Assembly (NCBI GenBank): GCA_036675285.1
Contig: JAKFFK010000245.1
Location: forward strand, 8,589 to 72,588
Direction: 5' to 3'
DNA length: 64,000 bases
Origin: Paucimonas sp.
GTDB lineage: Bacteria; Pseudomonadota; Gammaproteobacteria; Burkholderiales; Burkholderiaceae_D
Under the pieces are notes generated by a model. That model did not search any database and was not told the DNA's origin. It saw nothing but the letters and a program-made list of their open reading frames with translations. Positions within the stretch are counted from its first letter, which is position 1. The number at the start of each line of letters is the position of its first letter. Below are positions 11,367-13,829 of this stretch, in pieces. Made by a program: the position numbers and the translations under genes.

Positions 11367-12248
11367 TCACAGCACCGATTGTAACAAACGCGCCATCTCC
11401 GATGGATTTTTAGTCACTTTGATGCCGCAGGCTTCCATGATTTCCAGCTTGGCCTGCGCGGTATCCGCCCCACCCGAAATCAAGGCGCCGGCATGGCCCA
11501 TGCGCTTGCCCGGCGGCGCGGTGACACCGGCAATAAAGCCGACCACCGGCTTTTTCATGTTGTCCTTGACCCAGTACGATGCATTGGCCTCGTCCGGACC
11601 GCCGATTTCGCCGATCATGATGACCGCGTCGGTATCCGGATCGTCATTGAACATCTTCATGATGTCGATATGCTTCAAGCCATTGATTGGGTCGCCACCG
11701 ATGCCGACTGCCGACGACTGGCCCAGTCCCAATGCTGTCAGTTGGCCGACCGCTTCATAGGTCAGTGTGCCGGAACGCGATACCACGCCGATGCGGCCCT
11801 TCTTGCAGATATGGCCGGGCATGATGCCAATCTTGATTTCGTCCGGCGTGATCAGGCCCGGGCAGTTCGGCCCCAACAGCAGGGTCTTGCTGCCAGCCTT
11901 GGCCATCCTGTCTTTCAGCGCCATCATGTCACGCACCGGAATGCCTTCGGTGATGCAGATCGCCAGGTCGAGTTCGGCTTCAACCGCTTCCCAGATGGCA
12001 GCAGCGGCGCCGGCCGGCGGCACGTAGATCACGGATACGGTGGCGCCGGTCTGCGCCTTGGCGTCCTTGACGGTGGCATAAATCGGGATGCCTTCGAAGT
12101 CTTCGCCAGCCTTTTTCGGGTTGACGCCGGCGACGAAGCAGTTCTTGCCATTGGCGTAGTCGCGGCACATCCGGGTGTGGAACTGGCCGGTCTTGCCGGT
12201 GATGCCTTGGGTGATGACTTTGGTGTCTTTGTTGATCAGGATACTCAT
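11367..12248 (-). CDS. sucD: Succinyl-CoA synthetase alpha subunit
   Basis: MSILINKDTKVITQGITGKTG; phospho-His motif RMGHAGA. Confidence 0.98.
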   Translation of the reverse strand: MSILINKDTKVITQGITGKTGQFHTRMCRDYANGKNCFVAGVNPKKAGEDFEGIPIYATVKDAKAQTGATVSVIYVPPAGAAAAIWEAVEAELDLAICITEGIPVRDMMALKDRMAKAGSKTLLLGPNCPGLITPDEIKIGIMPGHICKKGRIGVVSRSGTLTYEAVGQLTALGLGQSSAVGIGGDPINGLKHIDIMKMFNDDPDTDAVIMIGEIGGPDEANASYWVKDNMKKPVVGFIAGVTAPPGKRMGHAGALISGGADTAQAKLEIMEACGIKVTKNPSEMARLLQSVL

Positions 12249-12265
12249 ATGATTCCTTTTTTATC

Positions 12266-12293
12266 CGTCATTCCCGCGCACGCGGGAATCCAT
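12266..12293. repeat. CGTC-tagged REP-like palindrome, left copy
   Basis: CGTCATTCCCGCGCACGCGGGAATCCAT, with an ATTCCC-N8-GGGAAT hairpin core. Confidence 0.85.
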
Positions 12294-12294
12294 G

Positions 12295-12582
12295 TTAATT
12301 CACTACATCAGTGTAAAGGTCGCGCCAATCCGGATTTAACTTTTCGACAAGATCGATTTTCCAGAGTCGATTCCATTTTTTCAGCTGTTTTTCGCGCTTG
12401 ATCGCTTCATTGATGTCTTCATGTGTTTCAAACCACACCAATGTCTTCAAACCATACTTTGCGCTAAACCCATCCACAAAAGCTTCTTTGTGTTGCCAAA
12501 CCCGTTTGATCAAGTCGGACGTCATGCCGATGTAGAGTGTTCCACGGGGCTGGTTCGACAAGATATAAACGTAGCTTTGCAT
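12295..12582 (-). CDS. Small stand-alone GIY-YIG nuclease family protein (95 aa)
   Basis: YVY...LYIGMTSDLIKRVWQH...EAIKREKQLKKW: the GIY-YIG motifs plus the conserved Arg and Glu are present. Confidence 0.92.
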   Translation of the reverse strand: MQSYVYILSNQPRGTLYIGMTSDLIKRVWQHKEAFVDGFSAKYGLKTLVWFETHEDINEAIKREKQLKKWNRLWKIDLVEKLNPDWRDLYTDVVN

Positions 12583-12590
12583 TCATTAAA

Positions 12591-12618
12591 ATGGTTTCCC
12601 GCGTTCGCGGGAATGACG
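12591..12618. repeat. CGTC-tagged REP-like palindrome, right copy (inverted)
   Basis: Reverse complement CGTCATTCCCGCGAACGCGGGAAACCAT is 26/28 identical to the left copy. Confidence 0.85.
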
Positions 12619-12662
12619 TACCTTTTATCTTTGTTTGAACCAAAACGCTCTCAACAGCAATG

Positions 12663-13829
12663 TTACTTGCCGTTGGCCGCTGCAACTACCTTTTGCGCAG
12701 CTTCTTCCATCGAGTCGGCCGAGATGATCGGCAGGCCGGAGTCGGCCAGCATTTTCTTGCCGATATCCTCATTCGTGCCCTTCATGCGCACCACCAGCGG
12801 CACGGTCAGATGCACCGCCTTGGAGGCGACAATCACGCCTTCGGCAATCACGTCGCAGCGCATGATGCCGCCGAAAATATTGACCAGAATCGCTTTCAGG
12901 CCCGGGTTCTTCAGCATGATCTTGAAGGCTTCGGTGACTTTTTCGGCGGTGGCGCCGCCGCCCACGTCCAGGAAGTTGGCCGGCTCGCCGCCGAACAGCT
13001 TGATGGTGTCCATGGTGGCCATGGCCAGGCCGGCACCGTTGACCAGGCAGCCGATGTTGCCGTCCAGGGAAATGTAGGCCAGGTCGAACTTGGAAGCCTC
13101 GACTTCGGCCGGGTCTTCTTCATCCAGGTCGCGGTAGGCGACGATTTCCGGTTGGCGGTACAAGGCGTTGGAATCGAAATTGAATTTGGCGTCGAGCGCG
13201 ATGACCTTGCCGTCGCCGGTCAGGATCAGCGGGTTGATTTCGGCCAGCGAGGCATCGGTTTCCCAGTAAGCCTTGTACAAGCCCTGCAGCTGCACGCGCG
13301 CGTCGGCAATCGATGCCGGCGGAATGCCGATCTTGGCCGAGATCGCATCGGCTTCGGCATCGGTCAAGCCGACTGCCGGATCAATCGCCACCTTGTGGAT
13401 CAGTTCCGGATGGCTCTCCGCTACTTCTTCGATATCCATGCCGCCTTCGCTTGATGCCATCAGGACTACCCGCTGACTGACGCGGTCGGTAACCATCGAT
13501 ACGTACAGTTCCTTCTTGATGTCGGCGCCCTCTTCAATCAACAGGCGCCGCACTTTCTGGCCTTCCGGTCCGGTCTGATGGGTGACCAGTTGCATGCCCA
13601 TGATGGCGTTGGCATACTCCTTGACCTGCTCGATCGACTTGGCTACCTTGACGCCGCCGCCTTTGCCGCGGCCGCCGGCGTGAATCTGCGCCTTGACGAC
13701 CCATACCGGACCGCCGAGCGTTTCGGCGGCCTTGACGGCCTCGTCGACCGACATGCATGGAATGCCGCGAGGCACAGTCACGCCGAACTTGCGGAGGATT
13801 TCCTTGCCCTGATACTCATGGATTTTCAT
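12663..13829 (-). CDS. sucC: Succinyl-CoA synthetase beta subunit (ADP-forming)
   Basis: [36 protein letters not shown]. Confidence 0.98.

What the first reader, a model, noticed from the sequence alone, without database searches (positions are those of the whole stretch)
12266..12618. GIY-YIG nuclease tightly bracketed by inverted CGTC-tagged REP palindromes inside the sucCD operon: candidate nuclease-driven REP element
Seen: a 95-aa GIY-YIG gene has a 28-bp palindrome 8 bp before its ATG and an inverted copy 1 bp after its stop. The two copies are 26/28 identical, have an ATTCCC-N8-GGGAAT stem, and carry unpaired CGTC tags that both face outward. The 353-bp unit lies between sucC and sucD on the same strand. 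Established: sucC and sucD are normally adjacent. An enzyme flanked by inverted REPs with outward tags is the RAYT/REP architecture of GTAG-type REPs. As I recall, CGTC-tagged REP families were described as lacking a dedicated transposase. ATTCCC-N8-GGGAAT is also the Neisseria dRS3 core. Inference: this may be the autonomous form of a CGTC-REP family, with a GIY-YIG nickase rather than an HUH transposase as mobiliser. That would be a minimal selfish element that hides in essential operons.
Basis: partly seen in the sequence, partly recalled or inferred. Interest (0 to 1): 0.9.

Follow-up and report, generated by a model that had tools for sequence, protein, structure and literature searches.

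The report
Known Ssn nuclease cassette in sucCD

Summary
A 95-aa GIY-YIG gene (12295-12582, minus strand) lies between sucC and sucD. It is bracketed by two inverted 28-nt hairpin repeats, 26/28 identical, with CGTC tags facing outward.

This is a member of a published system. Chenal et al. 2025 (PMC11893778) described Ssn nucleases flanked by NTS/SRM hairpins (consensus CGTCATTCCCGCGMAVGCGGGAATCYRG). The two copies here match that consensus 27/28 and 26/28. The protein aligns without gaps to the Neisseria gonorrhoeae ortholog (53% identity, E 1e-29) and keeps Y6, Y17 and E64. That paper already raises the IS/RAYT analogy.

New here:
- This 4.1-Mb genome has only these two hairpins and one gene copy, so it has no REP family.
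- All 8 congeners have an empty 12-15-nt sucC-sucD spacer.
- 17 of 400 other Oxalobacteraceae genomes carry an Ssn cassette at this same site, interleaved with empty relatives and incongruent with the sucCD tree.
- The exact tag-to-tag 353-bp unit recurs beside conjugation genes in an unrelated contig.

The cassette is therefore a discrete, horizontally exchanged module. I think it most likely entered by homologous recombination through the conserved sucC and sucD flanks. Nuclease-driven transposition is neither shown nor excluded.

The parts
12663..13829 (-). sucC (succinyl-CoA ligase beta subunit), the upstream operon gene
   Evidence: Pfam ATP-grasp_2 E 4e-77 and Ligase_CoA.
12619..12662 (-). 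44-nt left spacer between the sucC stop codon and the upstream hairpin. It is absent from congeners. It contains GATAAAAGG (12621-12629), a degenerate direct copy of the sucD RBS region.
   Evidence: It partly resembles the long left spacer of Collimonas arenae-type loci. A target-duplication reading is inconclusive.
12591..12618 (-). Upstream NTS/SRM hairpin. It reads CGTCATTCCCGCGAACGCGGGAAACCAT on the gene strand, with the tag pointing outward.
   Evidence: It matches the published NTS consensus at 26/28. DNA fold is -7.9 kcal/mol.
12295..12582 (-). ssn, a 95-aa single-domain GIY-YIG nuclease of the Ssn family
   Evidence: PF01541. 53% identity to the 94-aa N. gonorrhoeae ortholog, gapless, E 1e-29, with Y6, Y17 and E64 conserved. 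dN/dS is about 0.06 against relatives.
12266..12293 (+). Downstream NTS/SRM hairpin. It reads CGTCATTCCCGCGCACGCGGGAATCCAT on the plus strand, with the tag pointing outward.
   Evidence: It matches the NTS consensus at 27/28. DNA fold is -8.0 kcal/mol.
12266..12618 (-). The whole 353-bp tag-to-tag cassette, a discrete module
   Evidence: BLASTN against a cassette beside TrbI/VirB11-like genes (L070) aligns exactly 12618..12266 (74.5% identity, E 6e-69) and nothing beyond.
12249..12265 (-). Junction that carries the sucD ribosome-binding site (gataaaaaaggaatcat)
   Evidence: 16/17 identical to the junction of occupied Collimonas silvisoli and unlike the spacers of congeners.
11367..12248 (-). 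sucD (succinyl-CoA ligase alpha subunit). Codon 2 is AGT, as in the 17 occupied family genomes fetched; the one known exception among occupied loci is L072 (TCG).
   Evidence: Pfam CoA_binding and Ligase_CoA. Codon 2 is AGY in those 17 occupied genomes and TCN in all 8 congeners and in the empty Collimonas genomes.

Best explanation
This is an NTS-ssn-NTS cassette of the published Ssn family. It consists of a 95-aa single-domain GIY-YIG endonuclease gene and two inverted copies of its cognate hairpin, inserted in the sucC-sucD spacer and probably co-transcribed with the operon. By homology to the Neisseria enzyme (inferred, not tested here), the protein should bind the hairpin only when the DNA is single-stranded and only in the CGTC-first orientation. 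It should then cut about 3 nt 5' of the tag, which falls just outside the cassette on each strand. It would therefore act on ssDNA that carries such hairpins, such as transforming, conjugating or replicating DNA. The cassette is accessory and was gained horizontally in this lineage. The most likely route is homologous recombination of an already occupied sucC-sucD allele through the highly conserved flanking genes. It has not seeded any dispersed repeat family in this genome.
For: Family identity:
- Pfam GIY-YIG hit.
- Gapless 53% identity, E 1e-29, to the 94-aa N. gonorrhoeae ortholog, which sits inside an NTS array; Y6, Y17 and E64 are conserved.
- The hairpins match the published NTS consensus at 27/28 and 26/28.
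- The enzymology and the NTS-ssnA-NTS architecture come from PMC11893778.

Functional constraint:
- dN/dS is about 0.06 with synonymous sites saturated.
- Compensatory changes occur in three stem pairs across 69 distinct hairpins.

Operon context: no promoter-like or terminator-like site lies in the spacer on the gene strand.

Accessory status and horizontal exchange:
- 0 of 8 congeners have the gene, and all 8 have a 12-15-nt spacer.
- The window genome is sister to congener G003 and nested within the empty congeners in the sucCD tree.
- 17 of 400 other family genomes in 7 other genera are occupied at the same site.
- Occupied and empty genomes interleave within Collimonas, and sister Undibacterium species carry different Ssn classes.

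Linkage to the flank:
- sucD codon 2 is AGY in this genome and in the 17 occupied family genomes fetched, but TCN in the congeners and in empty Collimonas.
- The right junction is 16/17 identical to that of occupied Collimonas.

No repeat family here: only 2 hairpins and 1 gene in 4.13 Mb.
Against: - No biochemistry was done on this protein. The direct comparison was with the N. gonorrhoeae ortholog, not the assayed N. meningitidis protein, and CDD cd10448 could not be run.
- The recombination route is inferred. The AGY link has at least one exception: L072 is occupied but has ATGTCG and a different junction.
- The apparent breakpoint in sucD is confounded. Against Collimonas G309 there is 1 mismatch in the first 75 nt and 46 in the next 225, but the 5' end of sucD is conserved in all taxa.
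- ssn synonymous sites are saturated against every sampled relative, so no recent donor is known (best hit 85% aa).
- The same unit also occurs at an unrelated locus, which homologous recombination through sucCD flanks cannot explain.
Confidence: 0.75

Rival explanations
1. The 353-bp unit is an autonomous, nuclease-driven mobile element. Ssn would cut 5' of each outward tag, and host replication or repair would complete excision and insertion. Gene-less hairpins would be its non-autonomous offspring.
For: - The unit has exactly the same tag-to-tag boundaries in an unrelated context beside TrbI/VirB11-like genes.
- All congeners have empty sites.
- Hairpin copy number tracks gene presence in 401 family genomes: 32 of 40 genomes with at least 50 copies carry Ssn, against 69 of 361 others (odds ratio 17, p 1.5e-14).
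- Homologs about 60% identical, with near-identical hairpins, occur across phyla including Patescibacteria and Planctomycetes.
- A degenerate direct repeat, GATAAAAGG / GATAAAAAAGG, flanks the unit.
Against: - The gene is single-copy in 89 of 101 carrier genomes and in this one.
- The hairpins have not multiplied here.
- From established knowledge, GIY-YIG enzymes hydrolyse DNA and form no covalent intermediate, so they cannot do strand transfer alone.
[quoted passage not shown] With inverted copies, only one end is cleavable on any single strand, unlike IS200/IS605.
- Occupancy recurs at one locus and is linked to a flanking allele.
- The direct repeat is absent from most other class-A loci.
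Confidence: 0.15
2. The cassette is an ancient resident of the sucC-sucD spacer. It was inherited vertically from an early Oxalobacteraceae ancestor and lost many times, with no horizontal transfer into this lineage.
For: - It sits at the same site in 8 genera.
- Synonymous sites are saturated and purifying selection is strong, which implies old lineages.
- Decay and loss stages exist: pseudogenes in G041 and G187, solo degenerate hairpins in G103 and G180, and a clean loss in G157 that keeps the occupied-type junction.
Against: - The window genome is nested among empty congeners, all of which carry the 'never-occupied' TCN codon 2 and a different spacer.
- Sister Undibacterium species carry Ssn classes only about 57% versus 80% identical to this one.
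- A genome with a g46-like sucCD backbone (L027) carries a class-A Ssn, while its relatives carry class B or none.
Confidence: 0.07
3. The hairpins are operon regulatory or RNA-stabilising elements (REP-like attenuators between sucC and sucD), and the small ORF is incidental.
For: REPs can act on mRNA (Di Nocera 2013). The hairpins sit inside a transcribed operon.
Against: - Congeners do without them.
- The ORF is under strong purifying selection.
- The ORF travels with the hairpins across phyla and contexts.
- No terminator-like U-run follows the hairpins.
Confidence: 0.03

Closest known systems
Ssn nucleases with NTS/SRM hairpins (SsnA of Neisseria meningitidis, NMB0047; CDD cd10448; Chenal et al., Nat Commun 2025, PMC11893778)
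   Same: It is a single-domain GIY-YIG protein of about 95 aa with Y6, Y17 and E64. It has the same 28-nt hairpin with a CGTC tag and a trailing CC(A), and the gene is bracketed by inverted copies. It is 53% identical to the gonococcal ortholog.
   Different: This genome has only the two flanking hairpins, where pathogenic Neisseria have hundreds. The cassette sits inside the sucCD operon. Activity is untested here.
RAYT / REPtron (REP-associated tyrosine transposases; Nunvar 2010, Bertels & Rainey 2011, Ton-Hoang 2012)
   Same: A single-copy enzyme gene is flanked by inverted copies of a tagged hairpin repeat. The enzyme recognises the repeat as ssDNA, and repeat abundance correlates with the gene.
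   Different: The enzyme is a hydrolytic GIY-YIG nuclease, not an HUH/Y1 transposase. The tag is CGTC, not GTAG. There is no covalent intermediate, so no intrinsic strand transfer.
CGTC-tagged REPs / Neisseria dRS3 (Di Nocera et al. 2013, PMC3733652)
   Same: The repeat is the same (CGTC-1 = dRS3, core ATTCCC-N8-GGGAAT).
   Different: That paper found no dedicated enzyme for these repeats. The enzyme partner has been known since 2025.
Free-standing GIY-YIG homing endonuclease genes
   Same: It is a small selfish-looking nuclease gene inserted between conserved genes and spread horizontally. Presence/absence polymorphism is found at one site.
   Different: Homing enzymes cut the empty dsDNA allele and carry a DNA-binding domain. 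Ssn has no extra domain and cuts ssDNA next to its own hairpins, which means the occupied allele.

Membership tests
Ssn nuclease / NTS system | Single-domain GIY-YIG protein of about 90-100 aa | tested here: met
   95 aa; PF01541 covers residues 3-75 and no other domain is found.
Ssn nuclease / NTS system | Sequence homology to Neisseria SsnA (the paper used E < 1e-10) | tested here: met
   tblastn against an N. gonorrhoeae chromosome: 53% identity over residues 1-94, E 1e-29, gapless. This is the gonococcal ortholog, not the assayed meningococcal protein itself.
Ssn nuclease / NTS system | Catalytic residues Y6, Y17 and E64 (their mutation abolishes cleavage) | tested here: met
   All three are present at the same numbering (sequence).
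Ssn nuclease / NTS system | Gene flanked by the oriented hairpin matching CGTCATTCCCGCGMAVGCGGGAATCYRG | tested here: met
   The two copies match at 27/28 and 26/28, one on each side, with tags pointing outward.
Ssn nuclease / NTS system | Assignment to CDD cd10448 (GIY-YIG_unchar_3) | not testable with these tools
   No CDD library is available. NCBIfam gives only a sub-threshold intron-endonuclease hit.
Ssn nuclease / NTS system | Binding and cleavage of the hairpin as ssDNA only | not testable with these tools
   This needs the purified protein and oligonucleotides.
Ssn nuclease / NTS system | Dispersed hairpin copies elsewhere in the genome (frequent but not obligatory) | tested here: not met
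   Only the 2 flanking copies exist, allowing up to 4 mismatches, in 4.13 Mb. Relatives carry 0-370 copies.
RAYT / REPtron | HUH / Y1 tyrosine transposase | tested here: not met
   The protein has a GIY-YIG domain, and no Y1_Tnp family is hit.
RAYT / REPtron | Gene flanked by inverted tagged REPs | tested here: met
   The tag is CGTC rather than GTAG.
Insertion sequence / transposon | Multiple copies per genome or occurrence at different sites | tested here: inconclusive
   The gene is single-copy here and in 89 of 101 carrier genomes. However, the identical tag-to-tag unit occurs beside T4SS genes in another contig.
Insertion sequence / transposon | Target-site duplication | tested here: inconclusive
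   GATAAAAGG / GATAAAAAAGG flank the unit here, but not in most other class-A loci.

The most novel reading that the evidence does not exclude
The tag-to-tag NTS-ssn-NTS unit is a self-promoting mobile module of a kind not yet demonstrated. A hydrolytic, ssDNA-specific GIY-YIG nuclease would mark the 5' edge of the unit on each strand, and host replication, repair or recombination would finish the move. Spacers between highly conserved essential genes, such as sucC-sucD, would be preferred or favoured landing sites because their flanks also act as long homology arms for spread between genera.
Probability: 0.15. Interest if true: 0.65.

Novelty: new member of a known kind. Interest (0 to 1): 0.3.

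Why it matters
The question left open in 2013, which enzyme partners the CGTC-tagged REPs, was answered in 2025, so this finding does not open a new field. Its modest value is as a natural experiment on a point the 2025 paper left as a hypothesis: whether NTS-ssn-NTS behaves as a mobile unit. In Oxalobacteraceae one well-defined site shows every state. There are occupied alleles of two co-evolved nuclease/hairpin classes, pseudogenised copies, solo hairpins, cleanly emptied sites and never-occupied sites. The same unit with identical boundaries also sits next to conjugation genes. This genome is the minimal case, with a nuclease plus only its two own hairpins, which separates carriage of the cassette from expansion of the repeat. 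That gives concrete substrates and allele pairs for testing transposition against recombination-mediated spread.

Tried and rejected
- Chance palindromes: rejected. The pattern is expected 0 times in the window, and the reversed control pattern is almost absent from 401 genomes.
- A REP family in this genome: rejected.
- Extra gene copies in this genome: none.
- Solved structures by sequence: no hit.
- NCBIfam: only a sub-threshold hit.
- PADLOC defence models: none.
- Phage genomes: no homolog.
- Plasmids: 33 records, mostly chromids or mislabelled chromosomes, 32 of them non-mobilizable. Plasmids are therefore not an obvious vehicle.
- Target-site duplication: considered but inconclusive.
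- A recombination breakpoint about 65-75 nt into sucD: suggestive, but I do not rely on it. The 5' end of sucD is conserved in all taxa, and ssn itself is saturated at synonymous sites against the same genome.
- A perfect AGY/TCN link with occupancy: rejected as absolute because of L072.
- L030 (same protein, different upstream flank) as evidence of recent movement: set aside. The contig breaks inside a repeat module and could be an assembly chimera.
- Structure prediction: not run, because the Pfam hit and the ortholog alignment already settle the fold.

Full report
**1. Observation**

The region holds three same-strand (minus) genes: sucC (12663-13829), a 95-aa ORF (12295-12582) and sucD (11367-12248). 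Pfam assigns the small ORF to GIY-YIG (PF01541, E 1.5e-12) and confirms the two succinyl-CoA ligase subunits.

The ORF is bracketed by two 28-nt elements:
- 12266-12293 reads CGTCATTCCCGCGCACGCGGGAATCCAT on the plus strand and lies 1 nt after the stop codon.
- 12591-12618 reads CGTCATTCCCGCGAACGCGGGAAACCAT on the minus strand and lies 8 nt before the ATG.

The two are 26/28 identical, and both CGTC tags face away from the gene. The repeat finder extends the inverted repeat to 34 nt at 91% complementarity. The ATTCCC-N8-GGGAAT pattern is expected 0.00 times by chance in the window. Each copy folds as a DNA hairpin of about -8 kcal/mol. The only detail to add is that one copy has an imperfect outermost stem pair (GGGAAA).

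**2. It is a member of a published system**

A literature search found Chenal et al., Nat Commun 2025 (PMC11893778). They define the Neisseria Transformation Sequence, CGTCATTCCCGCGMAVGCGGGAATCYRG, which contains the dRS3 core. They show that it is spatially associated, across phyla, with a small single-domain GIY-YIG gene (ssnA, NMB0047, 94 aa, CDD cd10448).

Their main results:
- Purified SsnA binds the hairpin only as ssDNA and only in one orientation, and cuts a few nucleotides upstream of it.
- It does not act on dsDNA or RNA.
- The mutations Y6A, Y17A and E64A abolish cutting.
- 71% of homologs have at least one such motif nearby, and 42% have one on both sides.
- 81% of genomes with more than 200 motifs encode an Ssn.
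- The discussion states that the NTS-ssnA-NTS architecture looks like an insertion sequence, compares it with IS200/IS605 and RAYT/REP, and proposes domestication.

The window's hairpins match the NTS consensus at 27/28 and 26/28. The window protein aligns without gaps to the 94-aa ortholog in an N. gonorrhoeae chromosome (53% identity, E 1e-29). That ortholog sits in a dense NTS array, and Y6, Y17 and E64 are at the same positions.

It was published a year and a half before this scan.

**3. What this genome adds: no repeat family here**

The assembly (4.13 Mb, 301 contigs, 56% GC) contains exactly two copies of the hairpin, even when up to 4 mismatches are allowed, and one copy of the gene. 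The cassette is therefore not the 'autonomous form' of a resident REP family. It is a nuclease with only its own two hairpins.

**4. Empty sites and distribution**

None of the 8 same-genus genomes has the gene. All 8 have sucC-TAA, then 12-15 nt, then the sucD ATG, against 414 nt in this genome.

A DNA search of 401 family genomes found 17 further genomes with a contiguous match across sucD-ssn-sucC, in 7 other genera. The family is Oxalobacteraceae, judging by named relatives such as Collimonas silvisoli, C. arenae and Undibacterium baiyunense. Nearly all the other genomes have two adjacent HSPs, meaning an empty site.

All 17 occupied genomes show the same layout, tag + hairpin, ssn, inverted hairpin + tag, in two co-varying classes:
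- Class A has CGTCATTCCCGCG..., and its Ssn is 72-81% identical to this one. The one exception is the decayed pseudogene of Collimonas G187, at about 52%.
- Class B has TGTCGTTCCCGCG...GGGAAC, and its Ssn is 40-62% identical to this one.

The A:T to G:C switch at the outer stem pair is compensatory. Across 69 distinct hairpins, three stem pairs show compensated changes. For example, pair 4-23 is A:T in 46 copies, G:C in 15 and mixed in 8 (Fisher p 6e-9).

**5. Horizontal exchange at one locus**

In a sucC+sucD tree, this genome is sister to congener G003 and is nested among empty congeners. Occupied and empty Collimonas genomes interleave. The sister Undibacterium species G378 and G298 carry class A and class B respectively. 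A genome with a g46-like backbone (L027) carries class A, while its relatives carry class B, a solo degenerate hairpin (G103, G180), or a clean loss that keeps the occupied-type junction (G157). The ssn tree is thus incongruent with the backbone.

A marker links the cassette to its flank. sucD codon 2 is AGT or AGC in this genome and in all 17 occupied family genomes. It is TCG, TCC or TCT in all 8 congeners, in empty Collimonas and in other empty genera. These two serine codon families cannot interconvert by a single substitution without passing through a non-serine codon. The 17-nt junction carrying the sucD RBS is 16/17 identical to that of occupied C. silvisoli and unlike the spacers of congeners.

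The simplest reading is that occupied and empty sucC-sucD alleles are exchanged between lineages by homologous recombination through the very conserved flanks. sucC and sucD proteins are about 90-96% identical to this genome's in six of the seven other genera, and about 80% in the seventh, g10. On this reading the window's lineage gained an occupied allele.

Three caveats apply:
- One metagenomic locus (L072) is occupied but has ATGTCG and a different junction.
- The apparent breakpoint in sucD (1 mismatch in the first 75 nt against G309, 46 in the next 225) is confounded by general conservation of the 5' end.
- ssn synonymous sites are saturated against every sampled relative (dN 0.12-0.19, dS above 2, omega about 0.06). 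The lineages are therefore old, and no recent donor has been sampled (best hit 85% aa).

**6. Evidence that the unit is a discrete module**

Most close homologs (P0003, P0004, P0005, P0006, P0012) are also in sucC-sucD. P0010 (77% identical) is different: it lies beside TrbI and VirB11-like type IV secretion genes in a 34-kb metagenomic contig. BLASTN of the window against that locus aligns exactly 12618..12266 and nothing outside (74.5% identity, E 6e-69).

Across phyla, 64 of 76 homolog loci have an NTS-like hairpin within 200 nt. 47 have one on both sides, and 41 have the tags pointing outward. This reproduces the published association.

**7. Repeat abundance tracks the gene, but the gene itself does not multiply**

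In the 401 family genomes, the hairpin pattern (1 mismatch or fewer) occurs 0-370 times per genome, while a reversed control pattern occurs about 0 times. Ssn is present in 101 genomes, with one copy in 89 of them. Of the 40 genomes with at least 50 hairpins, 32 have Ssn, against 69 of the 361 others (odds ratio 17, p 1.5e-14). The median hairpin count is 17 with Ssn and 0 without (not corrected for phylogeny). This is the RAYT-like pattern of a single-copy gene with variable repeat load. It is correlative only.

**8. Mechanism**

Shown by others for orthologs: hairpin-specific, orientation-specific, ssDNA-only cleavage just 5' of the tag, and reduced integration of hairpin-bearing transforming DNA.

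Inferred here: the same activity for this protein. The predicted cuts would fall near 12262/12263 on the plus strand and near 12622/12621 on the minus strand, give or take a few nucleotides. That is just outside the cassette on each strand.

Because the two hairpins are inverted, only one end is cleavable on any one strand. From established knowledge, a GIY-YIG enzyme hydrolyses DNA without forming a covalent intermediate. IS200/IS605-style single-strand 'peel and paste' is therefore not available to it, and any mobility would need host replication, repair or recombination.

No promoter-like or terminator-like site lies in the spacer on the gene strand. The gene is therefore probably read through from sucC, and sucD keeps an AAGGAA ribosome-binding site.

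**9. Verdict**

This is a new member of a known kind. The useful extra is the allele series at sucC-sucD and the identical unit boundaries in a second context, which make the transposition-versus-recombination question directly testable.

Earlier reports of this scan on other genomes reached the same identification. I did not use them as evidence.

Noticed in passing
window about 43812, 45252 and 49425 (contig C91 52400, 53840, 58013), plus about 9 more places in the genome: A second, unrelated REP-like palindrome family (…CCTTCCCCTT[C/G]AAGGGGAAGG…, often next to TCCCCATCCC/GGGATGGGGA) has about 12 copies in the assembly. Another first-reader note says two of them lie in frame inside leuS.
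   Followed up: no
L070 1453-1821 (ENA k141_2555219, 34-kb contig): A class-A NTS-ssn-NTS cassette (Ssn 77% identical) sits beside TrbI and VirB11-like type IV secretion genes, with further hairpin copies nearby. It may be a conjugative vehicle, and conjugation transfers ssDNA.
   Followed up: partly
L052 (G103), L054 (G180), L053 (G157): sucC-sucD spacers: One genus shows a decay series at the same site: occupied, a solo degenerate hairpin in a 56-57-nt spacer, and a clean loss that still keeps the occupied-type junction and the AGC codon.
   Followed up: partly
L032 (G041) and L041 (G187): The ssn gene at the sucC-sucD site is a pseudogene in these two genomes. G041 has one in-frame TAG. G187, a 1.7-Mb Collimonas-genus genome, has four stops and decayed hairpins.
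   Followed up: no
L072 about 1400-1500: The upstream hairpin of this sucC-sucD cassette is split by an insertion of about 57 nt in its loop (CGTCATTCCCGC…57 nt…GCGGGAATCC). This locus is also the exception to the AGY codon-2 link.
   Followed up: no
L074-L153: Ssn homologs 55-67% identical, with almost unchanged CGTCATTCCCGCG..GCGGGAATCCA hairpins, occur in Patescibacteria, Planctomycetota, Bacteroidota, Chloroflexota, Cyanobacteria and Spirochaetes. They are as similar to this protein as class-B copies within its own family, which suggests cross-phylum transfer.
   Followed up: partly
L007 (G024): A family relative carries its single ssn between purH and ruvC, with variant hairpins (GTCCCAG…CTGGGAC / ACCCCAGC…GCTGGGGT). 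This is another spacer between conserved housekeeping genes.
   Followed up: no
PLSDB record NZ_CP119140.1 (L065): A 2.17-Mb N. gonorrhoeae chromosome is filed as a plasmid in the plasmid collection. This was convenient here, but it is a labelling error. The ssn ortholog in it is not annotated.
   Followed up: no
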